Below, piece by piece: positions 7,610 to 44,470 of a stretch of 64,000 nucleotides of DNA (its first letter is position 1; each line of letters opens with the position of its first letter). Below the pieces are notes generated by a model. That model was not told the origin of the DNA. It was given only the letters and a program-made list of their open reading frames with translations, and did not search any database. Where the stretch lies: the NCBI GenBank assembly GCA_040755095.1, contig JBFMBH010000005.1, forward strand, positions 479 to 64,478. Reading direction: 5' to 3'. The position numbers and the translations under genes are program-made. The DNA comes from Thermodesulfobacteriota bacterium (GTDB lineage: Bacteria > Desulfobacterota > Desulfobulbia > Desulfobulbales > JBFMBH01).

Positions 7610-10600
7610 TCAGGGCCGGTACTCGTCCGCCCCCATGTCGTAGTCATCGGTGCCATCACCCAGGCCGGCCACGTCGTACGGCCGGCCCTGGCCGTCGTAG
7701 TCGTCCGCCGGCGCGTTGGCGGTGCCCGCCACGTCGATGGCCCCGGAGGCGCCGAGGCAGCCGGCCACCGGGTCGTCGACGCCGCGGCAGATATGGAAGT
7801 TCCCGCCGGCGTTGGGATTGCCGGCCGTGGCGAACTGCAGGTCCACGAAGACCGGATCGAGGTCGATATTGCCGGTCTTGTCCACACAGGCCGTGCAGCC
7901 GCCGGCGATATCGGTGTAGGTGGTGGTGGGCGAGCCGTTGATCTGGTGGTTGGTGCCGCCGGCGGTATTGCCCCAGAAGATGGAGTTGCGGATGGTGCCG
8001 CCGCCTTGCCAGCCGCCGCCGTTCCTGGCAGCCCGGTTGCCGGCCACCGTCGAGCTGTACAGGCTCATGGTGCCGCTGGTATAGACGCCACCACCGTCGT
8101 TGTACGAGACCCCCTCGATGAGGTTGCCGGTGATCATGCTGTTGGTGACGGTGGCGGTGGCGGTATTGTAGATGCCGCCGCCGTAGGTCTTGGCCTTGTT
8201 GGCCCTGAGCCAGGCCTTGCTCACGCTGGCGGTGGCGTTGCCGGCGACGGTGAGGCCGCCGCCGTAGCCGTTGATCGCCTCGTTCTCCTGGATGGTGGTG
8301 CCGGTGATGTTGAGGACCAGGGCCGGACTGTTGGTGCCGCTCACCGCGGTGTGGATGCCGCCGCTGTTGCGGGCCGAGTTGTTGCTGATGGTGCCGCCGG
8401 TGATGTTGGCGGTCAGGGTCAGCCCGGCCACGTTGCTGGCGGCCAGGTACAGACCGCCGCCGTCGGAGCCGGCGGTGTTGGTGACGGTGTTGGTGTCGAT
8501 GGTGCAGTTGGTGAGCGAAAAGGTCAGGCTGGTGCCGGCCGAGAGGTAGATGCCGGCGCCCTGGGCGGAGGTGGAGTTGTTGGTGATCGCCGTGTTGGTC
8601 ACGGTAATGCTGCTGGTCATGGCGGTCAGGTGCATGCCCCCGCCCATGCCGGTGGAACTGGTGTTGGCGTTCAGCGTGGTATCGGAGACCGAGACGGTCC
8701 CGATGCCGTTGGCATAGATGCCCGGACCGTGGCGGGAGGAGTTGTGGCTGATCGAGGTGGGGCCGGTGATGGTGAGGGTGGTGGCAGCGCCGGTCAGATA
8801 CAGGCCGCCGCCTTCATAGTTGGTGGGGGTTGAATTGTACTCGATGGTGCTGCTGTTGATCACCAGAGGCGAATTGGCGCAGTAGATGCCGCCGGCATGC
8901 TGGCCCGCGGTGTTGTTGCTCACGGTGGTGCCGGTGATCGTGGTGGTGGAGCTGCGGTTGTTGAGATAGATTGCGCCGCCCATGAAGATGGTCTGGTTGG
9001 AGACCAGGCTGCTGTTGGTGATGGTCAGGGCGCCACCGGCATTGGCCGCGTAGACCCCGGAGCCGTAGCGGGAGGAGTTGGGGGCCACGGCGTCACCGAT
9101 GGTGCAGCTGTCGATGGTCGCTCCGCCGCCGTCGATGTGGATCCCGGCGCCCCCATTGTAGTTGTTGGCCGGCGTGTGGCCCTTGACGATGCAGTTCTTG
9201 ATCGTCGGCGCCGCGTTGTTGGAGATGAAGATGCCCCGGTCCTTCTCGGCGCCGGAGAACTGGTTGTCGATGGTGAAGCCGTCCACCACGGCGCTGGCTG
9301 TCTCGCCGTTGCTGAAGGTGAGCACCGGGTTGTTGCCGGCAGCGCCCTGGATGGTGGTATTGGCGGCGCCGTTCTCGGAATAGACGTAGACGTTCTTGCC
9401 GCCGAAGTTGACGTTCTCCGAGTAGGTGCCGTTCTTGACCAGGATGTAGGCGCCGCTCGGGGTGCTGCCGCTGCTGATCGCCCCCTGGATGGAGGTGTAG
9501 TCGCAGCCCGAGGCGCAGACCGTGATGGGGTTGACCACCGTCAAGGTGCCGCCCGGGTCGGCTGGCGTCCCGGTGGCCTCCGCCGCCTCCGTATCCTGGG
9601 CGTAGAAGCGGTACTTGAGGGTGCCGTCGCCGTTGTAGGCCACGGCCCGGCTGGCGGTGAAGAGCTTGCCGTCGGTGTAGGTGGTGTCGCCGGCGTCCAC
9701 CGCGGTCATGTCGTGCTTTTCGCCGGCCTCGTAGGCCAGGTTGTCGTTGGCATCGATCCACACCTGCACAGCGCTGGGGGCGTCGTTGTCTGTGTCGCTG
9801 TACGACACCCGGAAGACGAAGGTGTTGCCGCCAGGACCGGAATCCGGGGCGACGCCGTCGGCGGTGTAGCCGGCCTCGCCGGTCCAGGCCAGGGTGGGGG
9901 CGTTGTTGGGGGTGAAGGTCACGGTGACCGTGCTGTTGGCCGTGGGCGGGCCGGTGGCATCGGCCGTGCCGTCGTTGGCGAAGAAGCGGTAGGTGTAGAC
10001 GCCGTCACCGGTGTAGGCCAGGGGCTGGGTGGCGGCGTACCGCTTGCCGTCGGTCACGGTGGTATCGCCAGCATCCGTGGCGGTCAGGGCCATCTTCTCG
10101 CCCGGCTCGTAAGTGCTGTTGTCGTTGGCGTCCACCCAGACCTGGATCAGGGCCGGCAGGGTGTTGTCGGTATCGGTGTAGTCCACCCGGAACTGGAAGC
10201 TGCTGGCATCCGGACCGCTGTCCGGGTTGACGCCGTCGCTGGCATAGCCGGCCTCGCCGGTCCAGGCCAGGGTGGGGGCATTGTTGGTCACGGTCAGGGT
10301 CTGGTCGGCGGTGGGCAGCCCGGTGGCGTCGTCGCTGCCGTCGGAGGCGAAGAACCGGTACTTGAGGCTGCCGTCGCCGGCAAAGAGCACCGGGACCGCA
10401 GCGGCGTACCGTTTGCCGTCGCTGTACGTGGCGTCGCCGCCGTCCGTGGCGGTCAGGGCGTGCTTTTCGCCCGCCCCGTAAGTGTTGTTGTCATCGGCGT
10501 CCACCCAGACCTCGATGAAGGCCGGCGCCGTGTTGTCAGCATCGGTGTAGTCCACCCGGAAGGCAAAGCTGGTGCCGCCGATGGCGCTGTCCGGATGGAC

Positions 10601-13600
10601 GCCGTCGGCAACGTAATTGGCTTCGCCGGTCCAGGCCAGGGTGGGCGGGTTGTTGGTGACCGTGAGGCTGCCGCCAGCCACCGGCGCGCCGGTGGCCTCG
10701 AAGGTCCCGTCCTGGGCGGAGAAGCGGTACGGGATGCTGCCATCGCCCGCCATGCTCACCGCCAGGGTCAAGGTGTACCGCTTGCCGTCGGAATAGGTGG
10801 TGTCGCCGGCATCGGCGGCAGTCATGGCGTGCTTTTCGCTGGGGCCGTATGTCCCGTTGTCGTCGGCATCCACCCAGACCTCCATCGCCACCGGCGGGTC
10901 GTTGTCGGCATCGGTGTAGTCGACCCGGAAGACAAAGCCGGTGCCGCTGCCGCCGCTGTCCGGGCTGACGCCGTCGGCGGTGTAGCCGGCTTCGCCGGTC
11001 CAGGCCAGGCTGGGCGCGCTCACGGCCGAGCGGTACTCGTCGGCGCCGAGGTCATCCGCCGCCCCCTGGGGCCGGGCATCGCCGTCGAGATCCGTGGCCG
11101 GCGCGTAGGCGGCGTTGCCGTGGTCGACGGCCGCCGAGACGCTCTGGAGGTGGAAGTCGCCGGCCGCCGCATCCACGAACAGGGGGTCGCTGTCCGACAG
11201 ATAGCCCTCGACGGTGAGGGTGTAGGCGGCTCCGGTGTGGTCCAGGTACGGGCGGTTGGTGAAGATGCCGTCGTGGCCGCTGGCCAGGAGGGCGTCCTGG
11301 ATGGTGACCGAGCCGGCGTTGAAATGGACGACATGGCCGCCGCTGGTGGCGCTGTTGTCCCAGAGGATGCAGTTCCGGAAGACGCTGCTGGCGCCCTGGT
11401 TGTAGATGACGCCGCCGCTGCCGGCCGTAGCCTGGTTGCCGGCAAAGGTGGAGTTGACTGCGGTCAGGCTGCCGGTGTTGACGTAGGAAACGCCGCCCTG
11501 GGTGCCCCGGTTGTTGGCCACCAGGCAGCTCTCGAACAGGATGCTGGTGCCGGCGTTGGACGGGTAGACCACGCCACTGGTACCGCTGGCCGTATTGCCG
11601 GTGATGGTGCAACGGACGAAGCTGGCGCCGGAGCCGTTGGCATACACCGCACCACCGGCACCGGTCGCGGTGTTGTCCTTGAGGACGACATCGATGAAGT
11701 CCGCAGAGCCGTTCTGGGAGAAGACCGCACCACCGCCGCCACTGGCGGTGTTGTTGCGGATGGTGCAGTTGGTGAAGGAATGACCAGTGGCCGCATTGAA
11801 GAAGGCACCGGCGCCGTTGCCGGCGGTGTTGTTGTAGATCTCCGAATTGGTGATGGTGGCCACTGCCGCGATGTTGGCGGTGTAGATGCCGCCGCCGTTG
11901 GCGCCCGGGTTGTTGTTGCTGTGGATCTTGCAGTTGTTCACCGTGGCGGTGGCGGAGTTGAAGTAGACACCGATGGTGCCGCCGGTGACGGTGAAGCCGT
12001 CCAGCAGGTTGCCGGAGTTGCTCAAGAACAGCACCACGGTGCCCGGGTTGCTGATCGTGGTCACCTCGGGGCCGCAGACCGAGCGGACCGTGGTGTCGGC
12101 ATCATTGACTCCGGAGAAGGACAGGTTCTCGTTGTAGGTCCCGTCGTAGACCAGGACCGTGTGGGCGCCGTCGACGGCATCGATCGCCCCCTGGATGGTG
12201 GCATACCAGCCTACGCCGCCGCCCGGCCGCACCTTTTGGGCATTGACCACGGTCAGGGTGCTGCCGGTGACCGGCGTGCCGATGGCCGGGTCTGTGCCGT
12301 CCGAGGCGGCGAAGCGGTACGCGAGGACATTGTCGCCGGCCAGGGCCAGGGACATGGTCTTCTTGTACAGCTTGCCATCGGCGCAATTGGCGTCACCGGG
12401 ATCGTCGGCACTGAGATTGTACTTCTCGCCCGGCTCGTAGGCGCTGTTGTCGTTGACATCCACCCAGACCTGGATGTCGCTGGCCGCTGGCGGGCACTGA
12501 TTCTCGGGGTCGGTATAGCGGACGAAAAACTCGAAGTCGGCGCCCGTGGCGCCTGCCGCGGGCTTCACCCCTTCGGCCCGGCAGGTGGCCGCCACCCACT
12601 CCAGAAGCGGTGGGCTGTTGGCCCCGGCCACCACGCTGAAGGTGCTGTCCGCGGCCGGCAGCCCGGTGGCGGCGCTGCTGCCGTCGCTGGCATAGAAGCG
12701 GTAGCCAAGAGTGCCGTCGCCGGCAAAGGCTACCGCCCTGGTGGTGGCGTAGAGCTTGCCGTCGGCATAATTGGTGTCGCCGCCGTCCATCGCGGTCAGG
12801 TCGTGCTTCTCTCCAGCCTCGTACGAGCCGTTGTCGTTGGCGTCGATCCAGACCTGGATGCTCGCCGGCGCCTGGTTGTCGGCATCGGTGTAGCTGACCC
12901 GGAAGGTGAAGCTGGCGCCGTTACCGCCGGTATTGGGGCTGACGCCGTCGTCGGTGAAGGATGCCTCGCCGGTCCAGGCCAGGGTCGGGCCGTTGTTGAG
13001 GATGGTCACGGAGCCATCGCCAGTGGGGGCACCGGTGGCGCTGTTGCTGCCGTCCGAGGCGGTGAAGCGGTAGCGGATGATGTTGTCGCCGGCACTGGTC
13101 AGGGTGAGGCTCTTGGTATAGATCTTGCCGTTCATGACATTGACGTCGCCGGCATCGACCCCGGTCATGGCGTGCTTTTCGCCCGCCTCGTAGGAGCCGT
13201 TGTCGTTGGCATCCACCCAGACCTCGACGAAGCTGGGCGGCTCATTGTTGAAGTCTGTGTATTCCACCCGGAAGGTGAAGGTGGAGGAGGAAGGACCGCT
13301 GTCCGGGCTGGCGCCATCGGCGGTGTAGCCGGTCTCGCCGGTCCAGGAGAGGAAGGGGGCCTGATCCGTGCTCTGGTATGGATTCCGGTCCTTGCCCTCC
13401 AGGTTGTTGTTGCCATGGCAGCCGACACAGATATTGGTCACCGAGTGGTTGATCCAGGCGGTGCCGTCGCTGGCCGCCAGGGGCACATCGGCGGGATCGG
13501 GCGGAACGGGAGCGCCCAGGATGGTGGTGATGGCGTTCTTGTACCAGATCTCCAGGCCCGGCTCGCGGCCGGTGAGCTTGCCGTCCCGGACCATGGCCAA

Positions 13601-15412
13601 CCGCGTGGAGCCATGGACGTTATGACAGTTGGGACAGGTCATCAGGCTGGTGTTGCCGCCGCTCCAGTCCGCCGGATACTGGTAGTTGTTGATCACCATG
13701 TGGTACTCGTGGCGGTTGACGCCAGCGGTGACTAGGTTGGTGCTCATGTTGCTGGAGCTGAGGAACGGGCCCGAGTCGTGGCAGTTGTAGCACAGTCGGG
13801 ACTGGTTGATCAGGTTGCCGGAGTTGGGGGGCCGCGGGACCAGCATGGGCTCCCGGGTGCTGGTGCCGGTGCCCTGGCCCATGCCCACCAGCTTCAGCCG
13901 GAACCCCTCCCGGTAGACGCTGGGGTCGGTGGTCGCCGATTCACCGTCGTCAAAGGTCCTGGGGTCCGCGTCGATGTTGTGGTCGCTGGCGTAATCGTGG
14001 CAGGAGTCGCAGTGCACCGGCCGTCCGGCCAGGGTCTGGATTCCCCCTTTCGAGGGGTAGTTTTCGCCGGCCACCAGGCCGTGGCCGGTCTTGTAGTAGC
14101 CCCAGCCGGTGCCGTAGGTGTAGCTGCCGTCCTCGTCGCCCACCACGTTGGGGGCGCTCACGCCATAGATCTCGGAAGGCTCCTTGTCATGGCAGGTGGC
14201 GCACCACTTCTCCTTGCCCGACCGCAAGGTGCTGTTGTTGGTGGCCAGATAGACGCCGGCATCCCAGTTGGCCTTGGCGCCGAGGATCGGATCGTCGACC
14301 CCGTCGTAATCGCCGCCCGGAGAGTGGCAGGGGTTGCAGACCGTGGTGGCGGCCAGGGTGGTGGCGCTGTCCTTGAAGTTGGGGAAGGCGTTGGTGTCGT
14401 GGCAGCCGTCGCAGCCGATGTTCGGGCCTTTGGCGTCGTCGGTGTCGTTCTCGGTGTGGGTGGAGTGGCTGGCAAAGGTGCCGGCGCCACCCGTGGCGCC
14501 GCCGTAGCCCAGGTCGTGGCCGTGGCAGTCCGGGCAGGTGCCGCCCCCGACGCCGCTGCCGTGGGCAAAGCCGTTGTCGTGGCTGTGGCAGGGGATGCAG
14601 TACGCGCCGGCCTGGCCGCCGCGCACGTTGGTGTGCAACTGGTCCGGGGCCGAGCCGTCGTTGCGGAAATGCCGGGGCAGGGTGTGGCAGACCTCGCAGA
14701 CCCCGTCGTAGACGGCATTGCCATCGGCGTAGGAGTTGGCGCCCTCCTTGCGGAAGAACTTCACGGTCTTCGTGCCGCTGTTGGGGGTGGGCAGGCTGGA
14801 CTTCACCAGCTTGCCGTAGAAGATGGCAAAGGTGTTGCCGGCACTGGCCTTGCCGAGCTCCATGGCCGGATCCACGGTCAGGGTCTCGGCGGAGTTGCCG
14901 GTGATCCGGTAGTTGTACGAGATCTGGCTGGTGTTGGGCATGAGGATGTAGCCCACCAGCGCATCCGGCTCCCAGCCGGCGCCGTCCATGGTCAGGGTGG
15001 TGGCGGTCAGTCCGGTGGAGGTCCCGGTGGCCACGTAGCTGGCGGCACCGTATGTGCGCATCTGCATCTGGTGGTGGGGCCAGTGGCAGGTCCGGCATTC
15101 GATGGACCAGGTGCCACGCTGGCTGTTGGTGGTCCGGCTGGAGTGGGGCACCACGTAGGGGGCCCGCACGTCGTTGTGGCAGCTCCAGCACAGGTTGTTG
15201 AACGGCGTGTCGTCGATGTTCTGAGGCTCATGATCCACCCAGGCAGGGTGCTGATCCTCGACGATGTAGTGGCAGGAGTCGCAGCCGATGGTCTCCTGCG
15301 CATAGTGGGGATAGTCGACCCCCAACTGGTCCGCCCGCACCGTCCGAACCCAGCCCCCGGCCAGCACCAGCACGGTGGTCACGGCCAACGCTGTCATCAT
15401 CCTGATCTTCAT
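7610..15412 (-). CDS. Giant secreted multidomain protein (~2,600 aa): 13-haem cytochrome c module + 7 tandem ~124-aa repeats + 2 right-handed parallel beta-helix blocks
   Basis: Signal peptide MKIRMMTALAVTTVLVLAGGWVRTVRA; RBS GAGAGGG before ATG 15412. Thirteen CxxCH motifs between about 13417 and 15283. Repeats start with LAWTGE.GY..DGV.PD. PbH1-like N-x-[ST]-x-x-x-N-x-A-x-x-GG-[AG]-[IV]-[YF] rungs. Both helix blocks end in D.DG..RP......D[LM]GADEY. Confidence 0.9.
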   Translation of the reverse strand: MKIRMMTALAVTTVLVLAGGWVRTVRADQLGVDYPHYAQETIGCDSCHYIVEDQHPAWVDHEPQNIDDTPFNNLCWSCHNDVRAPYVVPHSSRTTNSQRGTWSIECRTCHWPHHQMQMRTYGAASYVATGTSTGLTATTLTMDGAGWEPDALVGYILMPNTSQISYNYRITGNSAETLTVDPAMELGKASAGNTFAIFYGKLVKSSLPTPNSGTKTVKFFRKEGANSYADGNAVYDGVCEVCHTLPRHFRNDGSAPDQLHTNVRGGQAGAYCIPCHSHDNGFAHGSGVGGGTCPDCHGHDLGYGGATGGAGTFASHSTHTENDTDDAKGPNIGCDGCHDTNAFPNFKDSATTLAATTVCNPCHSPGGDYDGVDDPILGAKANWDAGVYLATNNSTLRSGKEKWCATCHDKEPSEIYGVSAPNVVGDEDGSYTYGTGWGYYKTGHGLVAGENYPSKGGIQTLAGRPVHCDSCHDYASDHNIDADPRTFDDGESATTDPSVYREGFRLKLVGMGQGTGTSTREPMLVPRPPNSGNLINQSRLCYNCHDSGPFLSSSNMSTNLVTAGVNRHEYHMVINNYQYPADWSGGNTSLMTCPNCHNVHGSTRLAMVRDGKLTGREPGLEIWYKNAITTILGAPVPPDPADVPLAASDGTAWINHSVTNICVGCHGNNNLEGKDRNPYQSTDQAPFLSWTGETGYTADGASPDSGPSSSTFTFRVEYTDFNNEPPSFVEVWVDANDNGSYEAGEKHAMTGVDAGDVNVMNGKIYTKSLTLTSAGDNIIRYRFTASDGSNSATGAPTGDGSVTILNNGPTLAWTGEASFTDDGVSPNTGGNGASFTFRVSYTDADNQAPASIQVWIDANDNGSYEAGEKHDLTAMDGGDTNYADGKLYATTRAVAFAGDGTLGYRFYASDGSSAATGLPAADSTFSVVAGANSPPLLEWVAATCRAEGVKPAAGATGADFEFFVRYTDPENQCPPAASDIQVWVDVNDNSAYEPGEKYNLSADDPGDANCADGKLYKKTMSLALAGDNVLAYRFAASDGTDPAIGTPVTGSTLTVVNAQKVRPGGGVGWYATIQGAIDAVDGAHTVLVYDGTYNENLSFSGVNDADTTVRSVCGPEVTTISNPGTVVLFLSNSGNLLDGFTVTGGTIGVYFNSATATVNNCKIHSNNNPGANGGGIYTANIAAVATITNSEIYNNTAGNGAGAFFNAATGHSFTNCTIRNNTASGGGGAVFSQNGSADFIDVVLKDNTATGAGGAVYANGSGASFVRCTITGNTASGTSGVVYPSNAGTSILFESCLVANNRGTQGGVSYVNTGSLTAVNSTFAGNQATAGSGGVIYNQGASSVFRNCILWDNSATSGGHVVHFNAGSVTIQDALLASGHDGIFTNRPYLDHTGAAYTLTVEGYLSDSDPLFVDAAAGDFHLQSVSAAVDHGNAAYAPATDLDGDARPQGAADDLGADEYRSAVSAPSLAWTGEAGYTADGVSPDSGGSGTGFVFRVDYTDADNDPPVAMEVWVDADDNGTYGPSEKHAMTAADAGDTTYSDGKRYTLTLAVSMAGDGSIPYRFSAQDGTFEATGAPVAGGSLTVTNNPPTLAWTGEANYVADGVHPDSAIGGTSFAFRVDYTDADNTAPAFIEVWVDADDNNTYGAGEKHALTATDGGDATYSDGKRYAAAVPVLFAGDGSLKYRFFASDGSDDATGLPTADQTLTVTNNAPTLAWTGEAGYASDGVNPDSGPDASSFQFRVDYTDTDNTLPALIQVWVDANDNSTYEPGEKMALTATDAGDTTVTDGKRYAATQPLAYTGDGVYTYRFFANDGTADATGPPTANSTVTVTFTPNNAPTLAWTGEAGYTADGVAPDSGPGGNTFVFRVSYSDTDNDAPSAVQVWIDANDNLAYEAGEKHDMTAVDAGDTTYTDGKLFTASRAVAYNGDGTLKYRFYAQDTEAAEATGTPADPGGTLTVVNPITVCASGCDYTSIQGAISSGSTPSGAYILVKNGTYSENVNFGGKNVYVYSENGAANTTIQGAAGNNPVLTFSNGETASAVVDGFTIDNQFSGAEKDRGIFISNNAAPTIKNCIVKGHTPANNYNGGAGIHIDGGGATIDSCTIGDAVAPNSSRYGSGVYAANAGGALTITNSSLVSNQTIFMGGAIYLNNRSSTTTITGTTVSNNTAGQHAGGIYCANSPLVINSSTIEYNSTPTNYEGGGLYLTGAATTLTITGPTSISHNSSRHGPGIYANGIGTVSVSDTTLNANTSSTGMGGGMHLTAMTSSITVTNTAITNNSTSAQGAGIYLSAGTSLTFSLTNCTIDTNTVTNTAGSDGGGLYLAASNVAGLTLTANITGGTISNNSARNSGGIHTAVSGTNSPALVLNITGTTIQENEAINGYGGGLTVAGNATASVSKAWLRANKAKTYGGGIYNTATATVTNSMITGNLIEGVSYNDGGGVYTSGTMSLYSSTVAGNRAARNGGGWQGGGTIRNSIFWGNTAGGTNHQINGSPTTTYTDIAGGCTACVDKTGNIDLDPVFVDLQFATAGNPNAGGNFHICRGVDDPVAGCLGASGAIDVAGTANAPADDYDGQGRPYDVAGLGDGTDDYDMGADEYRP
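9530..11008 (-). repeat. Intragenic tandem repeat block B: 4 copies of the same ~124-aa domain
   Basis: The DNA string ctcgccggtccaggccagg (antisense of LAWTGE) recurs near 9885, 10255, 10625 and 10995, and also at 12970. Copies are more alike than those in block A. Confidence 0.85.
12242..13357 (-). repeat. Intragenic tandem repeat block A: 3 copies of a ~124-aa (about 370-bp) domain
   Basis: Protein consensus [LF][AS]WTGE.GYT.DG.SP..G....F.FRV.YTD.DN..P..++VW+D.NDNG.YE.GEKH.+T..D.GD.....GK.Y.......AGD....YRF.ASDGS..ATG.P. The third copy (LLEWVAATCRAEGVKP...) is diverged. Confidence 0.85.
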
Positions 15413-15476
15413 GCCGCCCTCTCTTTGCGATCCTGCGTTGCCAGTCAACCCGCGCACGGCCAACGTGCCTGCGGCC

Positions 15477-17876
15477 CTAAGGGGTCACCCGGAGCACGGC
15501 CCCGTCCGCCAGCAGCGCCGCCGGTGTCAGCCGGCCGTTGGCCACAAAGTCCACCAGGTAGTAGAAGGTGTAGCTGCCCGGCGGCAGGGGTGGCAGCTCC
15601 ACCACCGGCCGGTGGGCGTAGGAGCTTTCGTCCAGGGCTCCCCGCCAGAAGGGCACCAGCCGGCGCTGCCAGATCTGCCGCGTGCTGTCGTAGGCCAGCC
15701 ATTGCTGGCCGGCCCGGATGAGCAGATACCATTCGCAGTTCACTCCCAGGGCAGCGCCCGGGGCCACGGCTACGCTCAGGCGTCCCCGCCCGGCGGCCGC
15801 CAGATCGACCGTATCGAGATCGTTGGCCTTGAGATCCGGCACCGGATAGGGCGAAGGCGCCACGATCGGCGGCAGCGAGACGTCATCCAGCCAGGCCATG
15901 CCGGCCGCTGTCTGCTCCGCCCCTTGCGCCAAGTATTCCCAGCGCAGGACATGGCGGCCCGGCTCCACGGCGAAGCGCTCTTCGTCCCAGTCCCGCTCGC
16001 CGGACCAGCGTCCCCTCTCCTCGCCGTCCACCAGGAAGCGCAGGAGCTGGCCTTCGGGCAGGGTCGAGATCCGGGCCCAGAATCCTACCTCACCCGGGGC
16101 GGTGGCCTCCAGCGCCACCTCCAGGAAGCTGAGTCCCGCATCGCCCACCGCGCCCGCTGCCATGGCCCCGCTGCCGGAGCGGCTGACCCCATTTTGCAGC
16201 TGCCAGGGCGCCACGCCGCCGGAGATCCAGGGCAGGGTCCCCAGCCCGCTCTCGTCAAAGGTCACCAGGCTTGCCGCCGGCAGGAAGCGGGCGGCGGCCG
16301 TCTTGGCCTCGTCCATGGTCAGCTGGCAGCTGGGCTGGGCACCGGTGCAGGCACCGCTCCAGCCGGCAAAGACCTGCTCGGCGCCGGCCGTGGCCACCAG
16401 AGTCACCGGGGTGCCCTCCGGGTACTGGGCGCTGCAGTCGTCCGGGCAGGCAATGCCTGCCGCTGCCACCGAGCCCAGGCCTTGCACCTGAACGGTCAGC
16501 GGCCAGTTGACCGGCTCGGCCCCGAACAGGGCATGGATGATGTGGCTCCGGTCCACGGCCCGGAAGGTGTAGCTGGCCACCGGTCCCTGGGAAACGCCGT
16601 CCACCAGCACGTCAAGGATGGCAAGCCCCGGATCCGGGGTGATCTCGTAGCCTTGATCCTGGCCGTGCAGCACCGGGGAGAGGCCGGGAGGCGAGATGGC
16701 GCCGCCCGGGCTGCTCGTGGCCTCGATCGTATACTCGTTGAGGGCAAAGCGGGCCTCCACCGCGTGGCTCATGAGCACCCGGGGCATGGTCAGCTCGGCC
16801 AGCGGGCCGGCGTCGTCGCCGTCTACCAGCACCGCGGCCACGTGGTAGCCGGCTTCGGCGCTGACCGCCAGGCGCAGGTCCTGGCCGGCGGGCACCGGAA
16901 TGCGGCCCGCCGGTGCAATCCGGCCGCCGGCCCGGGCCCAGGCCTCCACCACCGGGGTGGGGGCAGGGCCGAAGACCTCCACGGTGCCGGCGTTGAGGGA
17001 GGCGACCAGCACCTGGCCGGTGCTGGCCACCGCCACGGACAGGGGGGTGCGCAAGGGGCTCTCCAAGTCGAAGATGGTGCTCAGATGCTCGCCGTCGCCA
17101 GCGAAGACCTGAACCACGTTCTGGTACGCATCGCTGACCAGCACCCGGCCGGCGTCGTCCACGGCCAGGCCCAGGGGCTTGATCAGCAGGCCGTCGCCGA
17201 TGCCAAAGGTGCCGAAGGCGCGCCGGTAGCGGCCCGCCAGATCGAAGACCTGCACCCGCGCCCCTTCATGGGGTCCCATGGCCGAGGTGACCAGGGGCAG
17301 GTCAGCCACCAGAAGCTCGTGCCGGACGTCATCCACGGCCAGGGCCGTGGGGTGGTTGAGCTGCCCGGCGCCACTCCCGGCCCCGGCAAAGGAGAAGAGC
17401 CGCCGGCCGTTCCCGTCATAGACCTTGATCACGCCGTCCCGGTCGTCGGCCACATAGACGGTGCCATTGGCAGCAACGGCAATGGCCAACGGCCGGCCAA
17501 GCTCGCCATCCCCTTGGCCCAGTGCATGGAGTCTCTTGCGGTCGGCGCCGAACACCTGCACCGAGCCGTTGGTCACGCTGCCGGCGAAGATCCGGTCGTC
17601 CGGGCCCACCGCCAGACTGACCGGCTGGGTCAGACCGTCGAGGCCCGGCAGAGACCGTCCCTCCCGATCCCACGCCGCCACCCGGTTCTCACCGGCCGGA
17701 ATGCCGTAGATTCGGTCCTGCCGGTCCAGCGCCATGGCGGTGACCTTGCCGGTGAGGATGGGCGCCTGGCGTCCGAAGCCTTCGGCCGGACCGGCGGCCC
17801 CGGCCGCCGGCAGGAAGGGTGCCAGGACCAGAACAGCCAGCAGCAACAGGATCCCGCATCGCCACGTTCCCTTCAT
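15477..17876 (-). CDS. Secreted NHL-repeat beta-propeller protein with two divergent InlB-B-repeat-like domains and a ~300-aa C-terminal extension
   Basis: Signal peptide MKGTWRCGILLLLAVLVLAPFLPAAGAAG, with ATG at 17876. NHL units such as LGRPLAIAVAANGTVYVADDRDGVIKVYD and KPLGLAVDDAGRVLVSDAYQNVVQVF. InlB-B-like WPLTVQVQGLGSVAAAGIACPDDCSAQYPEGTPVTLVATAGAEQVFAGWSGACTG...CQLTMD. Confidence 0.85.
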   Translation of the reverse strand: MKGTWRCGILLLLAVLVLAPFLPAAGAAGPAEGFGRQAPILTGKVTAMALDRQDRIYGIPAGENRVAAWDREGRSLPGLDGLTQPVSLAVGPDDRIFAGSVTNGSVQVFGADRKRLHALGQGDGELGRPLAIAVAANGTVYVADDRDGVIKVYDGNGRRLFSFAGAGSGAGQLNHPTALAVDDVRHELLVADLPLVTSAMGPHEGARVQVFDLAGRYRRAFGTFGIGDGLLIKPLGLAVDDAGRVLVSDAYQNVVQVFAGDGEHLSTIFDLESPLRTPLSVAVASTGQVLVASLNAGTVEVFGPAPTPVVEAWARAGGRIAPAGRIPVPAGQDLRLAVSAEAGYHVAAVLVDGDDAGPLAELTMPRVLMSHAVEARFALNEYTIEATSSPGGAISPPGLSPVLHGQDQGYEITPDPGLAILDVLVDGVSQGPVASYTFRAVDRSHIIHALFGAEPVNWPLTVQVQGLGSVAAAGIACPDDCSAQYPEGTPVTLVATAGAEQVFAGWSGACTGAQPSCQLTMDEAKTAAARFLPAASLVTFDESGLGTLPWISGGVAPWQLQNGVSRSGSGAMAAGAVGDAGLSFLEVALEATAPGEVGFWARISTLPEGQLLRFLVDGEERGRWSGERDWDEERFAVEPGRHVLRWEYLAQGAEQTAAGMAWLDDVSLPPIVAPSPYPVPDLKANDLDTVDLAAAGRGRLSVAVAPGAALGVNCEWYLLIRAGQQWLAYDSTRQIWQRRLVPFWRGALDESSYAHRPVVELPPLPPGSYTFYYLVDFVANGRLTPAALLADGAVLRVTP

Positions 17877-17934
17877 GATTGCAGACCTCGCCTCGGAATG
17901 GTCGGCCTCTGGAGGTCGGGGAGCCCAGGGGGCC

Positions 17935-19065
17935 TCAGATCCCGTCCTTGGTGGAATGACATTTGAAACAGCCCGTGCCGGCGGCGGCGCCGGTGGTGCC
18001 CACCACCATGGCTGTCCGGTCCCAGCGCAGCATGTCCGGGAAAGGACTGCCATGGGCGCGGTGGCAGGACAGGCAGATGACCTTGTCGGTGCCTGGACGT
18101 ACGACGTTGGCCGCAAAACCGGTCAGGGTCGGCTCCGGCCGGCCCACCGGCACCTGGGGGTCATAGACCGTGTAGCTGGTGTACTCGGACCCCGCCTCGC
18201 CGGGAATGACCGCATCGGCGGGGTGCCGCAGCCAGGGGCTGGCGCCGCCGCCGTTGTCGGTGCCCATGAAGGTGGTGGCAAAGCCGGGAGAGTGGAAGTT
18301 GTAGTGGCAGCCGGCACAAAACTTGCCAATCGATTGCGGACTCTGGTTGTCCGAGCCGTCGCCGCCGTAATAGGTGTTGTGAGCGGTACCGGTCGGGCTC
18401 TGCTCCCAGTCAGGATCCTCGATGCCAGTGACACCGGCACCGCCCAGGAAATCGTGACCGGAGGGGGCGGCCAGGAAGCGGTACCAGCCGCCGTCTGCGC
18501 CCACCGGCTGGCCGGCCGGGTCGCCGCCGTGGTGCCTGACGCTGTTGTGGCAGCCCTGGCAGCCGTTCTTGCGGCCGCCGGTGGTCTGGGCATCGGTCAG
18601 GGTCAGGGAGACATGGCAGCTGTTGGCGCAGCCGACCGCGCCCGGCGCCACCTCGAGGGCGGCGTCTCTGGCCGAGACGCCCCGGACGTTGTGGCCGTGC
18701 TCGTCGCCCAGCGCGGCCACCCAGTAGAAGTTGCCTCCAGCCAGCGGGTCGGCGGGCGGAACCAGATTGTAGACGATGGGAATGCGGGAATCGGCGACAC
18801 TGACGATGGTTGCCCCGGCACTGCTTGTGTGGCAGCCGACGCAGTCGGTGACCAGGAGGGCGCCCTGGGGGCCGCTACCGGTGCCACCGCTCAGGCTGCC
18901 GCCGCTCCAGCCCGCCCCGGTGCCACTGGCCACCACCGCGGCGCCGGCCTGGCTGTTGTGCATGGTGTGGCAATTGCTGCACAGGCCGCTCACCCGAGCG
19001 TGACTGGTCGATTCCCAGCACAGCACCATGCCCATCGCCAGAGCCATGATCCGTCCGTCGTGCAT
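17935..19065 (-). CDS. OmcS-like multihaem cytochrome c, paralogue 1 (7 haem motifs, one of them CX3CH)
   Basis: Motifs CSNCHTMHNSQ, CVGCH, CANSCH, CQGCH, CAGCH, WLRHP, CLSCHRAHGS and C-terminal GCFKCHSTKDGI. GGAG lies 7 nt before ATG 19065 (MHDGRIMALAMG...). The longer ORF back to 19455 has a Pro/Arg-rich, non-protein-like N-terminus. Confidence 0.8.
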   Translation of the reverse strand: MHDGRIMALAMGMVLCWESTSHARVSGLCSNCHTMHNSQAGAAVVASGTGAGWSGGSLSGGTGSGPQGALLVTDCVGCHTSSAGATIVSVADSRIPIVYNLVPPADPLAGGNFYWVAALGDEHGHNVRGVSARDAALEVAPGAVGCANSCHVSLTLTDAQTTGGRKNGCQGCHNSVRHHGGDPAGQPVGADGGWYRFLAAPSGHDFLGGAGVTGIEDPDWEQSPTGTAHNTYYGGDGSDNQSPQSIGKFCAGCHYNFHSPGFATTFMGTDNGGGASPWLRHPADAVIPGEAGSEYTSYTVYDPQVPVGRPEPTLTGFAANVVRPGTDKVICLSCHRAHGSPFPDMLRWDRTAMVVGTTGAAAGTGCFKCHSTKDGI

Positions 19066-19393
19066 GCCCGTGCTCCATCCGCCATTCGGCGCCGGGGCCG
19101 CGAATCCTTGGCCCCGGTGCAGCGCGCCGCCGGCCGTGCTGGCCTCGGAGCTGCGCTGGCTGGCCCCCCGATCATCACGTGGCCCGGATGGCCGACAAGG
19201 CTTCCTTTTCCCTTTATCGCGGCACTGTTCCGATGTCTTTTCTAGGGGTTGGCGTGAGCTGGCAACACTCAAGCCATAATCCCATAGTACGAAATAGCCC
19301 CTGCCAGGACAATGGAAGCCATTTCTCGGAAGCTTGACCTTGTGGGAAGGGACTTCTCGTAACGTTCCTGGGGCGGGGCCGGGGCAGGACCTT

Positions 19394-19798
19394 TCAGCCA
19401 GCGTTTCCGGCGTTGCGCAGGGTCCGGCTGGGGGGAGTCGGACGGCAGGGGGCACGTTGGGCCGCGAGCCTGTCCAGAAACAGGGACAGCTCCAGAAAGA
19501 GATCCGAGGGCAGCTGGCAGAAGGCGACGCCCAGACGGAAGAGGCGGCGGTGCCCTGCTCCGACCTCGGTGCATGAGGTCACCCGGCCGCTGAGGCGAAC
19601 CCGGGAGGTCAGGCGGAACGGAAACTGGACCACCAGCTCCAGGTGGGCTCCTGGAGGCAGGCACTGCTCGCAGACCAGACAGAGGCCACCCTGGCTCAGG
19701 TCCTGACTCTGGGCCATGCAAAAGGGAGCCTGGGATCCTTGCCGCCGCAGGCTCAGGACCAGCGGGCGGTCAAGACGGCAGTACTGGCGCGTTTCCAT
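19394..19798 (-). CDS. PilZ-domain (putative c-di-GMP binding) protein
   Basis: RQYCRLDRP (RxxxR-like) followed by DLSQGG (D-x-S-x-x-G). GGAGGAG RBS before ATG 19798. Confidence 0.65.
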   Translation of the reverse strand: METRQYCRLDRPLVLSLRRQGSQAPFCMAQSQDLSQGGLCLVCEQCLPPGAHLELVVQFPFRLTSRVRLSGRVTSCTEVGAGHRRLFRLGVAFCQLPSDLFLELSLFLDRLAAQRAPCRPTPPSRTLRNAGNAG

Positions 19799-38719: not shown

Positions 38720-39904
38720 CTACGCGAGATCCTTGTGACAGCCGATGCACAGCTCCTTCTTGGACGGCTTGCGCAGCCGGAATTCAATGCTGGCGCCATG
38801 GTCGGCATGACAGGAGTTGCAGGTGATCCGTCCGTCCTCCAGGGTGTTGTATTCCTCCGGGATGGTCATCCCTTCCCGGGGGTAGACGTTCACAGGATGG
38901 GAGAGGACGTCCTTGGCTTCCTTGTGGCAGGTGTAGCAGATGGTGATGTTGGTCTCGAGCTCACTCCGCAAAGGAGGATGGTCGTCCGGCTTGCTGGCCC
39001 GCGCTCGTGGCTCGGGGGCCGCGGCTGTCCTCACCGGGGGCGGCGCTCCCACGGCCAGGCGCACTGGCTGGTTGGCGGCGAAGCGGACCAGGTAGCGATC
39101 GCCGTTGCGCAGGATGGTGTGCTCAAGCTCGATCACCTCGCTGCCCGCCTCCGCCGCCACCTCGACCGGTGAGACCGAGGTGGCCGTGGAGAGCTCCATG
39201 GCCTGCGATTCGCTCCGATTGCCGAACATGTCCTGGGATGCCACCCGGAAGCTGTATGTGGTCTTGGCCTTGAGGCCGGACAGGAGCACTTCGTGCTTGA
39301 GGCTCAGGTCATTGTCCGTGGGGGACTCGTTGTCCATGGCGCCGACACCGTAGAGCACCCGACTGTCCGCCACCTCGTCGGTGCGCCAGGCAATGGTGGC
39401 CGAGTAGAAGACCCCTCGCCGCACCTCTTTGACCTTGAGATCAGCGATCCGGGGCGGCGTGTGGTCATTGACCAGGGGGGGCAGGTCCTCCAGAGGGGGC
39501 AGGTCGAGCTGCTCGCTCACCAGGCCGCCGTGGCCATTGCTGGCCTTGACATAGAGGACATCGTCCACATCCGCCGGCGGGATCACAAACACATGCTCGG
39601 GCTGCGCCAGACCGCTTTCTCCCAGCCAGCGCAGATTGCGGGGCATGTCCGTGGTGGCGCGGCCCCTGGCGCCCTTGGTAGCGGTCCGGGTGGGGGCCAG
39701 ATGGCAGACGTGGCACTCGCGCCGCAGGAACGGCAGATGGATGAAGGGCTTGGCCAAGCTCTCGTCGCATTCCTGCTTGTGGCATTCGTAGCACGCCTCC
39801 GGGTCGTTGGGATCAGCGGCCGGGGCGCTGTGGGCAGCGGGACCGAGGGCGGCCAGGGCAGCGGCCAGCCCGGTGGCCAGAACGAGGTACTTGGGAGCAG
39901 CCAT
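38720..39904 (-). CDS. Secreted pentahaem cytochrome c with central fibronectin-type-III-like domain
   Basis: Signal peptide MAAPKYLVLATGLAAALAALGPAAHSA. Haem motifs CYECH, CHVCH, CYTCH, CNSCH and CIGCH. The middle segment ...YSATIAWRTDEVADSRVLYG...LLSGLKAKTTYSFRVASQDMFGN is FN3-like. Confidence 0.85.
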   Translation of the reverse strand: MAAPKYLVLATGLAAALAALGPAAHSAPAADPNDPEACYECHKQECDESLAKPFIHLPFLRRECHVCHLAPTRTATKGARGRATTDMPRNLRWLGESGLAQPEHVFVIPPADVDDVLYVKASNGHGGLVSEQLDLPPLEDLPPLVNDHTPPRIADLKVKEVRRGVFYSATIAWRTDEVADSRVLYGVGAMDNESPTDNDLSLKHEVLLSGLKAKTTYSFRVASQDMFGNRSESQAMELSTATSVSPVEVAAEAGSEVIELEHTILRNGDRYLVRFAANQPVRLAVGAPPPVRTAAAPEPRARASKPDDHPPLRSELETNITICYTCHKEAKDVLSHPVNVYPREGMTIPEEYNTLEDGRITCNSCHADHGASIEFRLRKPSKKELCIGCHKDLA

Positions 39905-40269
39905 GATGCATCCTCAGCGAGCAATGAGCACGAAGCGCCCCACCTGAGGACCTTGACGCCTTCCCTCCTCCATCGGGGGCTTGTCAGGGTCCGGGCCGAC
40001 CGCAACGCCTCGATCGTGTGCGCAGACGAGGTCGCACCTGGCGACCTCGCCCATCAGCAGGAAGCCCGAGGGGCGATCCTGCGACGTCAATGGAGAGGGT
40101 GGGAGTCAGCTCCCTGTGAACGGTGGGTGGCGTGTGGCGCCGGTGGGGCACCGAAGCTCCACAAAGCCATTATAGAACAATGGCCGAGGCATTTCCAGAT
40201 GCCGCTGCCGGTCGCGGTTGCGAGAAAATCCCTTGACAAGGGCAGCGGGGGGCGACTAATGGACAAGGC

Positions 40270-41718: not shown

Positions 41719-41729
41719 GCGGAAAAAGA

Positions 41730-41758
41730 GCGGCCCCCTGGCTGAGCCAGGGGGCCGC
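41730..41758 (-). terminator. Intrinsic terminator downstream of OmcS-like gene 2 (also closes the convergent + strand gene)
   Basis: 13-bp stem GCGGCCCCCTGGC-tga-GCCAGGGGGCCGC. On the minus strand it is followed by TCTTTTTCC. Confidence 0.7.
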
Positions 41759-41838
41759 GGTCATGTGGCCCGGGGCGGCAGGAGGAGGGAGGAGATGGCG
41801 AGAGGAGCCGCCCCGGAAAAGGATCTTCCTCAGGAGAT

Positions 41839-44408: not shown

Positions 44409-44470
44409 CGTCGCCTCCCGCCGGTGGGCCCACCGGCATGTGCCCAGGCCAGTCGCCCAGGAAGCCTGGG

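What the first reader, a model, noticed from the sequence alone, without database searches (positions are those of the whole stretch)
17935..19065. Divergent heptahaem OmcS-like paralogue heading the operon with the giant haem/beta-helix protein
It keeps the N-terminal CSNCHTMHNSQ, WLRHP, CLSCHRAHGS and C-terminal GCFKCHSTKDGI landmarks. It differs in three ways. The signal peptide is atypical (MHDGRIMALAMGMVLCWESTSHA). There is a Gly/Ser-rich insertion after the first haem. The central region carries two motifs (CANSCH and CQGCH) where the other paralogues have one. It is co-directional and closely spaced (58 and 64 bp gaps) with the NHL/InlB-B protein and the 2,600-aa giant, suggesting one functional unit.
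Basis: partly seen in the sequence, partly recalled or inferred. Interest (0 to 1): 0.7.

Follow-up and report, generated by a model that had tools for sequence, protein, structure and literature searches.

The report
Seven-haem OmcS-like secreted cytochrome gene
This gene encodes an exported, seven-haem relative of the Geobacter "nanowire" cytochrome OmcS. It belongs to a large, already recognised family used by sulfur-cycling bacteria to move electrons outside the cell, so it is a good annotation rather than a new kind of system.

Summary
Window 17935-19065 (minus strand) is a real 376-aa gene with a Sec-type leader. It has six CXXCH motifs plus one CX3CH (CANSCH), and these hold all 14 cysteines of the mature protein. 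The 58- and 64-bp gaps to an NHL/InlB-B protein and a 2,600-aa 13-haem beta-helix protein are as described.

OmcS (PDB 6EF8) is the only significant solved relative, both by sequence (E 8.5e-8; profile 3.6e-19) and by fold (Foldseek E 1.3e-5, TM 0.45).

The protein is not a divergent oddity. The Gly/Ser loop and the two central motifs are hallmarks of the dominant subfamily. This subfamily includes about 195 of 227 relatives examined, and the superfamily spans 1,660 clusters at 50% identity. All seven motifs are invariant or nearly so.

The family is already in the literature. Desulfurivibrio alkaliphilus DA_402 has seven predicted motifs, is induced more than 100-fold during Fe(III)-oxide respiration, and is modelled as an OmcS-like filament.

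The order cytochrome, long NHL protein, giant cytochrome recurs in four loci of three other Desulfobulbales genomes, which supports one functional unit. An osc-like cluster lies at 38-58 kb.

Verdict: a new member of a known kind. The conserved three-gene cassette is the only part I did not find described.

The parts
17935..19065 (-). Gene A: 376-aa OmcS-family multihaem c-type cytochrome, seven-motif (DA_402-like) subfamily
   Evidence: Translation. GC3 0.85. Identical NCBI protein P0001. OmcS sole PDB hit.
18997..19065 (-). Predicted Sec signal peptide, residues 1-23: n-region MHDGR, h-region IMALAMGMVLCW, c-region ESTSHA, predicted cleavage before RVSGLC
   Evidence: N-terminal comparison with 60 homologues, hydrophobicity 2.52. 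A23, V25 and G27 are at least 90% conserved. AF2 models a helix at residues 2-16. No SignalP run was possible.
18967..18981 (-). Haem motif 1, CSNCH (residues 29-33). It is followed by TMH; His36 is equivalent to OmcS His16.
   Evidence: C29, C32, H33 and H36 are invariant.
18871..18939 (-). Gly/Ser-rich loop (about residues 43-65) between haems 1 and 2. It is a subfamily feature with a conserved Trp.
   Evidence: hhalign shows a 14-column gap in the hexahaem subfamily. Consensus.
18829..18843 (-). Haem motif 2, CVGCH (residues 75-79)
   Evidence: invariant.
18613..18630 (-). Haem motif 3, CANSCH (residues 146-151), a non-canonical CX3CH. The spacer length is hypervariable across the family.
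   Evidence: C150 and H151 invariant, C146 at least 90% conserved.
18547..18561 (-). Haem motif 4, CQGCH (residues 169-173), followed by the invariant pair His178-His179
18304..18318 (-). Haem motif 5, CAGCH (residues 250-254), with NFH (His258)
18061..18075 (-). Haem motif 6, CLSCH (residues 331-335), with RAH (His338). This is the start of the Pfam Paired_CXXCH_1 match.
   Evidence: E 8.8e-11.
17956..17970 (-). Haem motif 7, CFKCH (residues 366-370), six residues from the C-terminus
   Evidence: invariant.
19066..19393 (-). 328-nt non-coding leader and probable promoter region between the PilZ gene and gene A
   Evidence: Flat codon-position GC. No Rfam family. No significant RNA structure. 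Weak terminator-like site at 19310-19297.
17877..17934 (-). 58-nt gap between gene A and the NHL gene; no terminator-like hairpin; GAGG upstream of the ATG
   Evidence: z = +1.5.
15477..17876 (-). 799-aa secreted NHL beta-propeller + InlB B-repeat protein
   Evidence: Pfam NHL 8.9e-12, Flg_new_2 1.1e-10. Propeller homologous to the short NHL proteins of the 38-58 kb cluster. Orthologues follow the cytochrome in L002, L005, L010 and L014.
15413..15476 (-). 64-nt gap between the NHL gene and the giant gene; GAGGG 5 nt before the ATG; no terminator
   Evidence: z = +1.05.
7610..15412 (-). 2,600-aa secreted giant protein: 13 CXXCH in residues 1-690, about eight ~100-aa repeats (GEVED-like), and two PbH1 beta-helix blocks with choice-of-anchor-Q ends
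   Evidence: Orthologues found with E 1e-190 to 1e-290 in four syntenic loci.
19394..19798 (-). PilZ-domain protein immediately upstream (context; possible c-di-GMP link)
   Evidence: Pfam PilZ 8.9e-10.
38720..58206 (.). Second, osc/DIET-like EET cluster, a candidate trans-acting biogenesis system. It holds hexahaem OmcS-like paralogues (41839-43008, 45566-46834), a 12-haem protein (43608-44408), NHL propellers (44471-45445, 57130-58206), a 750-aa porin-like protein (47002-49254), LpoB/CsgG-like lipoproteins (49256-50041, 51528-52304), a PPIase (52193-53992), and 26-haem and 16-haem cytochromes (54099-57307).
   Evidence: Literature.

Best explanation
Gene A encodes a Sec-exported multihaem c-type cytochrome of the OmcS superfamily. 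It belongs to the seven-motif subfamily typified by Desulfurivibrio alkaliphilus DA_402.

Proposed mechanism. After leader cleavage (predicted SHA|RV), periplasmic haem lyases attach haem to six CXXCH sites and, probably, to the CX3CH site. The result is a closely packed bis-His haem chain that runs from within 6 residues of the mature N-terminus to within 6 residues of the C-terminus. The protein is then placed outside the outer membrane, where it carries electrons between the cell and insoluble or partner-cell redox substrates.

It is most likely co-transcribed with, and works with, the downstream NHL-propeller/InlB-B protein and the 2,600-aa 13-haem beta-helix surface protein. Head-to-tail polymerisation like OmcS is plausible, via the invariant His36 of the CxxCHTMH motif ligating a haem of the next subunit. 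The osc-like PPIase/lipoprotein/propeller genes at 47-58 kb may assist.

Shown here: homology, motif conservation, leader features and conserved gene order. Inferred: haem occupancy, extracellular location, polymerisation and co-transcription.
For: - Relationship to OmcS. OmcS is the only significant solved relative: phmmer E 8.5e-8 over residues 28-364, family profile E 3.6e-19. A high-confidence AF2 model (pLDDT 85.8, pTM 0.85) has OmcS as its sole Foldseek hit (E 1.3e-5, probability 1.00, TM 0.45).
- Motifs. All seven Cys..CH motifs plus eight further His (36, 125, 178, 179, 229, 258, 281, 338) are invariant in 41-109 homologues. All mature Cys lie in motifs.
- Leader. The hydrophobic leader and AxA-type junction align with those of 60 homologues.
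- Family size. 1,549 hits at E<1e-5 and 1,660 50%-identity clusters.
- Gene order. Cytochrome, long NHL, giant 12-13-haem protein occurs in L002, L005, L010 and L014.
- Gaps. No terminator or hairpin.
- Biogenesis candidates. The window carries osc-like components (osc roles quoted).
Against: - Fold match to OmcS is below TM 0.5.
- Haem occupancy of the CX3CH site is untested. The DA_402 authors discounted one of the seven motifs for lack of a paired His in their model.
- No signal-peptide predictor could be run, and the n-region carries only one Arg next to an Asp.
- No expression data exist for this MAG. Co-transcription is inferred from spacing and synteny only.
- Polymerisation has been shown only for Geobacter OmcS itself.
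- Deleting the cytochrome genes of the loosely analogous cytochrome+NHL clusters in D. ferrophilus did not impair Fe(III)-oxide reduction (PMC9769857).
Confidence: 0.72

Rival explanations
1. The protein is a functional hexahaem. One of the two central motifs (CANSCH or CQGCH) does not carry a redox-active haem, as assumed for DA_402. The protein would then be an ordinary six-haem OmcS homologue with a vestigial or structural Cys pair.
For: The DA_402 analysis found that one motif lacked a paired His in the AF2 model. Alignments disagree on which central motif corresponds to OmcS haem 3. The spacer of motif 3 varies from 1 to 15 residues.
Against: C150 and H151 are invariant and C146 is at least 90% conserved, and C169, C172 and H173 are invariant, across 109 sequences at 44-76% identity to gene A. 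A dead site would be expected to have decayed over that range. Eight invariant non-motif His are enough for seven bis-His haems. Variable-spacer CXnCH sites are known to bind haem, for example CX3CH/CX4CH in Geobacter and Desulfovibrio cytochromes (NCBIfam TIGR01904, and general knowledge).
Confidence: 0.25
2. The protein does not polymerise. It is a monomeric, or complex-bound, surface or periplasmic cytochrome that passes electrons to or from the giant 13-haem protein, with the NHL propeller as scaffold.
For: It is tightly linked to a giant surface multihaem protein in the closest relatives. NHL propellers accompany non-filament extracellular cytochromes in D. ferrophilus and in the Uet pathway. 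TM to OmcS is only 0.45.
Against: The CxxCHTMH motif is invariant; its His is the inter-subunit ligand in OmcS. The terminal haem motifs sit at both chain ends. The DA_402 oligomer model forms a filament. An osc-like biogenesis set is present in the window.
Confidence: 0.35
3. The three genes are merely neighbours in an EET gene island and are transcribed and used independently.
For: More distant seven-motif genes (below 50% identity) usually lack the long NHL protein and the giant. They sit instead next to hexahaem paralogues and short NHL proteins. Gaps of 58-64 nt are long enough to hold internal promoters.
Against: The same order and strand occur in four loci of three other genomes with different upstream genes. 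There is no terminator-like element or stable hairpin in either gap. Shine-Dalgarno sequences are placed for translation of each downstream gene.
Confidence: 0.2
4. Gene A is a decaying paralogue with a defective leader and no function.
For: The n-region is weak (MHDGR), and the leader contains Trp, Glu and Cys.
Against: Strong coding GC3. Every family-invariant residue is intact. Leader hydrophobicity is within the family range. The downstream cassette is conserved.
Confidence: 0.03

Closest known systems
OmcS of Geobacter sulfurreducens (GSU2504; PDB 6EF8/6NEF), the hexahaem nanowire cytochrome
   Same: Full-length sequence homology (E 8.5e-8; profile 3.6e-19). Sole fold match. Shared N-terminal CxxCHTMHNS with the His16 equivalent, LRHP, CLSCHRAH and a C-terminal CxKCHxxKD. 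Size about 350-400 aa, loop-rich and Gly/Ser/Thr-rich. A companion NHL propeller and a PPIase are encoded nearby.
   Different: One extra central Cys..CH motif (seven against six), and one site is CX3CH. An HH pair and His229 are absent from OmcS. It lacks the roughly 35-residue insert that OmcS has before the last haem. TM is only 0.45. The host is a Desulfobulbales-like MAG. Polymerisation is untested.
DA_402 of Desulfurivibrio alkaliphilus and the 'OmcS-like sister clade' (Nature 2025, PMC12545173)
   Same: Same subfamily. Both have seven CX2-5CH motifs, a predicted leader and extracellular location, and OmcS-like predicted structure. Desulfurivibrio orthologues carrying the DA_402 primer site are 43-49% identical to gene A.
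   Different: In Desulfurivibrio loci the gene sits beside a hexahaem paralogue, not beside the long NHL protein and the giant. There are no expression or physiology data for this MAG. DA_402 was treated as an effective hexahaem.
OmcS-like extracellular cytochromes of syntrophic sulfate reducers (Murali et al. 2023, PMC10553843; Skennerton et al. 2017, PMC5539420)
   Same: Several OmcS-like copies per genome within EET clusters. The 12-haem OmcX-like gene and the adjacent 26-haem and 16-haem genes are also present in this window. These proteins are proposed to form nanowires.
   Different: Those papers do not describe the seven-motif subtype or the cytochrome-NHL-giant cassette, as far as the held text shows.
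Window paralogues at 41839-43008 and 45566-46834 (hexahaem subtype)
   Same: 46% and 37% identical to gene A. They share the same N- and C-terminal landmarks, the HH pair and the leader junction.
   Different: They have a single central motif, of the conserved non-canonical form QLTCAGxxGCHG (CX5CH). They lack the Gly/Ser loop. They are embedded in the osc-like cluster.
Cytochrome + NHL-propeller clusters: D. ferrophilus DFE_0448-0451 and DFE_0461-0465; Uet pathway UetHI; Geobacter OscD
   Same: A predicted extracellular multihaem cytochrome is encoded next to an NHL beta-propeller.
   Different: Here the propeller carries a roughly 450-aa C-terminal extension with an InlB B-repeat. It is followed by a giant cytochrome/beta-helix protein. 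Homology of gene A to DFE_0450/0464 was not tested.

Membership tests
OmcS superfamily (OmcS/OmcT-like multihaem cytochromes) | Significant full-length sequence similarity to OmcS | tested here: met
   phmmer E 8.5e-8 over residues 28-364. Family profile E 3.6e-19. No other significant PDB sequence hit.
OmcS superfamily (OmcS/OmcT-like multihaem cytochromes) | The six OmcS haem-binding motifs in conserved order, including N-terminal CxxCHTMH and C-terminal CLSCHRAH...CxxCH | tested here: met
   The assignment of OmcS haem 3 to CANSCH or to CQGCH is ambiguous.
OmcS superfamily (OmcS/OmcT-like multihaem cytochromes) | OmcS-like three-dimensional fold | tested here: inconclusive
OmcS superfamily (OmcS/OmcT-like multihaem cytochromes) | Export signal for periplasmic haem attachment | tested here: met
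   Heuristic only: hydrophobic core 2.52, SHA|RV aligned with the AxA|[KR]V of homologues, AF2 helix at residues 2-16. SignalP was not available.
Cytochrome nanowire (polymerising OmcS-type filament) | Head-to-tail polymerisation with inter-subunit His-Fe ligation | not testable with these tools
   Only indirect evidence: His36 (the OmcS His16 equivalent) is invariant. The DA_402 oligomer model is from the literature.
Cytochrome nanowire (polymerising OmcS-type filament) | Companion osc biogenesis genes (PPIase chaperone OscH, channel-like OscEFG, beta-propeller OscD) | tested here: inconclusive
   The window encodes a PPIase, LpoB/CsgG-like lipoproteins, a porin-like protein and NHL propellers at 44-58 kb. 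Direct comparison with Osc sequences was not possible because Shen 2025 is not held.
DA_402-like seven-motif OmcS sister clade (PMC12545173) | Seven CX2-5CH motifs on an OmcS-like scaffold | tested here: met
   The same pattern occurs in 195 of 227 relatives. The DA_402 primer maps only to seven-motif genes in Desulfurivibrio loci.
DA_402-like seven-motif OmcS sister clade (PMC12545173) | Induction during extracellular Fe(III)-oxide respiration | not testable with these tools
   No transcriptome exists for this MAG.
Pfam Paired_CXXCH_1 (PF09699) / TIGR01905 | Doubled CXXCH domain above the gathering score | tested here: met
   41.8 bits against a cut-off of 20.6, residues 331-374. 36.3 bits against 25.2.
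Cytochrome c3 family (the name NCBI gives this protein) | Match to class III cytochrome c (PF02085) or Cytochrom_c3_2 | tested here: not met
   Gene A gets no PF02085 or PF14537 hit. Cytochrome_C7 reaches 26.2 bits with no stretch passing on its own. The NCBI name is generic.

The most novel reading that the evidence does not exclude
The seventh haem is real. On this reading, the cytochrome, the long NHL/InlB-B protein and the giant 13-haem beta-helix protein form a self-contained 'wire plus anchor' cassette. A seven-haem-per-subunit filament would be nucleated on, and electrically plugged into, a giant cell-surface cytochrome. The propeller would act as assembly factor or cap. This would be a base structure for cytochrome nanowires that has not been identified in Geobacter.
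Probability: 0.15. Interest if true: 0.75.

Novelty: new member of a known kind. Interest (0 to 1): 0.38.

Why it matters
OmcS-type cytochromes are the best-understood route for long-range extracellular electron transfer. Their relatives in Desulfobulbales and Desulfurivibrionaceae have just been linked to sulfide-driven iron-oxide respiration.

This locus adds two modest points. First, family-wide invariance argues that the seventh haem motif, discounted in the published DA_402 analysis, is functional. That would change the haem-chain geometry assumed for this clade. Second, a conserved cassette links the cytochrome to a long NHL protein and a giant multihaem beta-helix surface protein. This offers a concrete candidate for how such cytochromes are anchored and fed with electrons at the cell surface, a point still unclear even in Geobacter.

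Neither point is surprising enough to change the field without experiments.

Tried and rejected
- Upstream riboswitch. Geobacter EET genes often carry GEMM-I riboswitches. Rfam found none at gathering score across the window, and none at E<=5 in 18900-19900.
- Promoter and terminator scan of 7000-21000. It gave nothing above shuffle expectation on the minus strand, and no terminator in the two gaps. RNA folding of the gaps and the leader showed no excess stability.
- Which central motif is the 'extra' haem? This stays unresolved. MAFFT and hhalign pair CQGCH with the CX5CH of the hexahaem subtype. The profile-versus-OmcS alignment pairs OmcS CSSCH with CANSCH. A larger MAFFT alignment splits the CX5CH across both motifs.
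- Does His229 co-vary with the extra motif? No. It is at least 90% conserved in the hexahaem subtype too, although the two window paralogues lack it.
- Genomic context of the two closest homologues (P0002, P0004) and of P0001 itself. They are not on record.
- Reading Shen et al. 2025 on the osc cluster. The paper is not held. Its content is known only through a citing paper.
- Supplement of Deng et al. 2018, wanted for DFE_0450/0464 haem counts. It is not held.
- The first AF2 run, with 41 sequences, was mediocre (pLDDT 67.6). It was replaced by a 109-sequence run.
- Literature search for 'OmcS-like' plus 'heptaheme'. No hits.
Full report
**1. What is there**

The minus strand of 17935-19065 carries an uninterrupted 376-codon ORF.
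- Its third-position GC is 0.85, against 0.64 and 0.58 at positions 1 and 2. The in-frame stretch upstream (19066-19455) is flat at 0.66/0.66/0.64. The ATG at 19065, which has a GGAG 7 nt upstream, is therefore the start.
- NCBI's annotation of the source contig made the same call. P0001 ('MAG: cytochrome c3 family protein [Thermodesulfobacteriota bacterium]', 67-kb contig) is 100% identical over 100% of the length.
- The protein has CSNCH(29), CVGCH(75), CANSCH(146), CQGCH(169), CAGCH(250), CLSCH(331) and CFKCH(366).
- CANSCH is a CX3CH motif, so the count is six canonical motifs plus one non-canonical.
- All 14 cysteines of the mature protein lie in these motifs. In 20,000 shuffles of the sequence, no more than two such motifs ever arose.
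- The 58- and 64-bp same-strand gaps to the next two genes are exact.
- The next gene encodes a 799-aa protein with a classic leader, NHL repeats and an InlB-B (Flg_new_2) domain.
- The gene after that encodes a 2,600-aa protein with a leader and 13 CXXCH motifs in the first 690 residues. These are followed by about eight ~100-residue repeats and two PbH1-type beta-helix blocks that end in choice-of-anchor-Q motifs.

**2. Is it OmcS-like?**

Yes.
- Against all PDB sequences, the only significant hit is OmcS (6EF8/6NEF), at E 8.5e-8 over residues 28-364.
- A profile of 41 homologues raises this to 3.6e-19.
- A first AF2 model was mediocre (pLDDT 67.6). With 109 homologues the model reached pLDDT 85.8 and pTM 0.85.
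- Its only Foldseek hit in the PDB is again OmcS: E 1.3e-5, probability 1.00, TM 0.45/0.42. The fold relationship is real but loose, and the model lacks haems.
- Pfam and NCBIfam recognise only the generic C-terminal Paired_CXXCH_1 domain. The NCBI name 'cytochrome c3 family' is not supported by a c3 domain match.

**3. Is it divergent?**

Only relative to its two neighbours in the window.
- The word-indexed search returned 1,549 relatives at E<1e-5.
- The exhaustive search of 1.84 billion cluster representatives found 1,660 clusters at E<=1e-3 and 541 at E<=1e-30.
- Nearly all of the top 120 hits have the same seven-motif layout: a third motif, CXnCH, followed about 20 residues later by CXXCH.
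- In a 227-sequence alignment, 195 have two central motifs, with n = 2-8. Twenty-four have the single CX5CH of the window paralogues. Eight appeared to have a single central motif to a scan limited to n = 2-8; the six printed also carry a first motif with n outside that range, roughly 1 or 9-16.
- Among 50%-identity representatives the split is roughly 64 to 39.
- Profile-profile alignment of the two subtypes (E 1e-110) shows two things. The Gly/Ser loop after haem 1 is a conserved feature of the seven-motif subtype, with a conserved Trp. The hexahaem subtype has its own conserved non-canonical motif, QLTCAGxxGCHG.
- Gene A is 46% identical to one window paralogue and 37% to the other; those two are 48% identical to each other.
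- The accession numbers of the 79%- and 71%-identical hits (MEW6218022, MEW6217976) bracket that of gene A's product (MEW6218266). This indicates that the same MAG carries at least three seven-motif copies (inference).

**4. Seven haems?**

The seven C..CH motifs are conserved throughout 109 sequences that are 44-76% identical to gene A. C146 is at least 90% conserved and the other motif residues are invariant. Eight additional histidines are also invariant (36, 125, 178, 179, 229, 258, 281, 338), which is enough for seven bis-His haems. This argues that both central sites are functional.

Two caveats apply.
- Alignments disagree on which central motif is the addition relative to OmcS.
- His229 does not co-vary with the extra motif.

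Haem occupancy is inferred, not shown.

**5. Export**

No signal-peptide predictor was available, so the leader was compared with those of 60 homologues.
- All have an N-terminal hydrophobic segment ending in a small-x-small junction directly before [KRQ]V[TSK]G-x-C.
- Gene A has MHDGR / IMALAMGMVLCW / ESTSHA | RVSGLC.
- Its best 10-residue hydrophobicity is 2.52, within the family range of 1.1-4.1.
- A23, V25 and G27 are at least 90% conserved, and AF2 models residues 2-16 as a helix.
- The n-region is weak (one Arg, one Asp) but otherwise ordinary.
- Covalent haem attachment itself requires export (established biochemistry of c-type cytochrome maturation).

**6. One functional unit?**

- A scan of one genome per species found more than 500 related loci, of which 79 were retained.
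- The order seven-motif cytochrome, then long NHL protein (1,150-1,210 aa, E 1e-68 to 1e-86 to the window protein), then giant 12-haem protein (E 1e-190 to 1e-290) recurs on one strand with tight spacing in four loci.
- These loci are L002 (Desulfobulbaceae MAG127, with a small TPR gene inserted; called genes), L005 (Desulfobulbaceae UBA5123), and L010 and L014 (two copies in one Desulfurivibrionaceae MAG). The upstream genes differ between loci.
- Two further loci (L032, L050) pair a seven-motif gene with an NHL gene and a different large multihaem ORF.
- Below about 50% identity the usual context changes to tandem hexahaem paralogues (14 of 79 loci) and short NHL propellers. An NHL gene of any kind is present in 25 of 79 loci.
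- In the window neither gap contains a terminator-like site or a stable hairpin: z = +1.5 and +1.05. Both downstream genes have Shine-Dalgarno sequences.
- Upstream of gene A lie 328 nt of non-coding DNA, then a PilZ gene. There is no Rfam element there.
- Gene A therefore plausibly heads a three-gene transcript. This is inferred from synteny and spacing, not from RNA data.

**7. Wider context in the window**

- Housekeeping genes at 25-37 kb separate the cassette from a second EET cluster at 38-58 kb.
- That cluster contains a 5-haem FN3 protein, the two hexahaem OmcS-like paralogues, a 12-haem protein and two short NHL propellers. It also has a 750-aa porin-like protein, two LpoB/CsgG-like lipoproteins, a PPIase-domain protein, and adjacent 26-haem and 16-haem cytochromes.
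- This matches published descriptions in three respects:
  - the Geobacter omcS-companion (osc) cluster: PPIase chaperone OscH, OscE/F/G required for secretion, and OscD, which affects filament morphology (as summarised in PMC13194489);
  - the 26+16-haem operon and the 11/12-haem OmcX relatives of SEEP-SRB1 (PMC5539420);
  - the OmcS-like/OmcX cassette of syntrophic sulfate reducers, proposed to form nanowires (PMC10553843).
- The propeller of the 799-aa protein is homologous to the short propellers: 32% identity, E 6e-18.

**8. What is already known**

The decisive paper is 'Microbial iron oxide respiration coupled to sulfide oxidation' (Nature 2025, PMC12545173).
- In Desulfurivibrio alkaliphilus the extracellular multihaem cytochrome DA_402 is induced more than 100-fold during this metabolism.
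- DA_402 has seven predicted CX2-5CH motifs. Six align with OmcS; the seventh was set aside because the model showed no paired His.
- It defines an 'OmcS-like sister clade' widespread in Desulfurivibrionaceae.
- The published DA_402 forward qPCR primer matches 17/20 only inside the seven-motif genes of three Desulfurivibrio loci (L008, L018, L020). About 0.07 such matches are expected by chance in the roughly 1.2 Mb searched (my own estimate). Those genes are 43-49% identical to gene A.
- Gene A is therefore a member of a described clade.
- Cytochrome+NHL pairings are also known in D. ferrophilus (PMC9769857) and in the Uet pathway (PMC9900912).
- I found no description of the cytochrome / long NHL-InlB-B / giant beta-helix cytochrome cassette in the held literature. 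That library is incomplete.

**9. Mechanism and verdict**

Most likely the protein is exported and loaded with six or seven haems. It would then be displayed or polymerised outside the cell as part of an extracellular electron-transfer route, together with its two operon partners. The invariant CxxCHTMH His, and haem motifs within six residues of both mature termini, fit an OmcS-like head-to-tail chain.

The main rivals are that it is effectively a hexahaem, that it does not polymerise and instead acts as a redox partner of the giant protein, or that the three genes are transcribed independently. All remain open and are testable as listed under next steps.

The finding is a correct and careful reading of the sequence, but the gene is a new member of a known kind. 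The family-wide conservation of the seventh motif and the conserved three-gene cassette are the only points that go beyond published work. Interest is moderate to low (0.38).

Noticed in passing
window 38720-58206: A complete osc/DIET-like extracellular electron-transfer cluster. It holds two hexahaem OmcS-like genes, a 12-haem OmcX-like gene, two short NHL propellers, a porin-like 750-aa protein, two LpoB/CsgG-like lipoproteins and a PPIase. It also has adjacent 26-haem and 16-haem cytochromes, the same pair described for SEEP-SRB1.
   Followed up: partly
window 41839-43008 and 45566-46834; family alignment A2: The hexahaem paralogues use a conserved non-canonical CX5CH haem motif (QLTCAGxxGCHG) in place of the OmcS CSSCH. 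Both window copies also lack a His (the column of His229 in gene A) that is at least 90% conserved in their own subfamily.
   Followed up: partly
homologues P0065, P0073, P0077, P0092, P0093, P0095: The spacer of the third haem motif in the seven-motif family is hypervariable. It ranges from CX1CH to about CX16CH with Gly-rich inserts, reminiscent of the MccA CX15CH site that needs a dedicated lyase. Whether these long-spacer sites are matured is unknown.
   Followed up: no
proteins P0124 (841 aa, 19 motifs), P0185, P0217, P0227, P0135: Some family members are fusions: tandem OmcS-like domains, or an OmcS-like domain behind an N-terminal extension of about 350 aa.
   Followed up: no
window 3624-7585 and 20824-24868: The cytochrome cassette is bracketed on both sides by paralogous pairs. 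Each pair is an ABC_sub_bind periplasmic binding protein plus a dCache-HAMP histidine kinase. These are possible dedicated sensors for the cassette, or traces of its insertion.
   Followed up: no
window 19394-19798 (-) and 19842-20420 (-): A PilZ-domain protein and a small leader-bearing protein with no Pfam match lie directly upstream of gene A on the same strand. The PilZ gene hints at c-di-GMP-linked control of surface cytochrome production.
   Followed up: partly
L010 and L014 (contig JAQYVW010000010.1): One Desulfurivibrionaceae MAG carries two cytochrome-NHL-giant cassettes one after the other on a single 63-kb contig.
   Followed up: partly
accessions MEW6217976, MEW6218022, MEW6218266: The two closest homologues of gene A (79% and 71% identity) appear to come from the same MAG, on other contigs (117 and 159 kb). 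Their neighbourhoods could not be retrieved.
   Followed up: partly
window 7610-15412, protein residues about 690-1050 and 1460-1950: The giant protein contains about eight copies of a ~100-residue module: LAWTGEAGYTADGV..F.FRV.YTD.DN..P..v.VWVDANDNG.YE.GEKH...DGK.Y.....aGDG...YRF.A.DG. The module is only partly covered by Pfam GEVED/DUF7151.
   Followed up: no
window 29125-29198 (-): A tRNA gene, the only Rfam hit at gathering score in the window.
   Followed up: no
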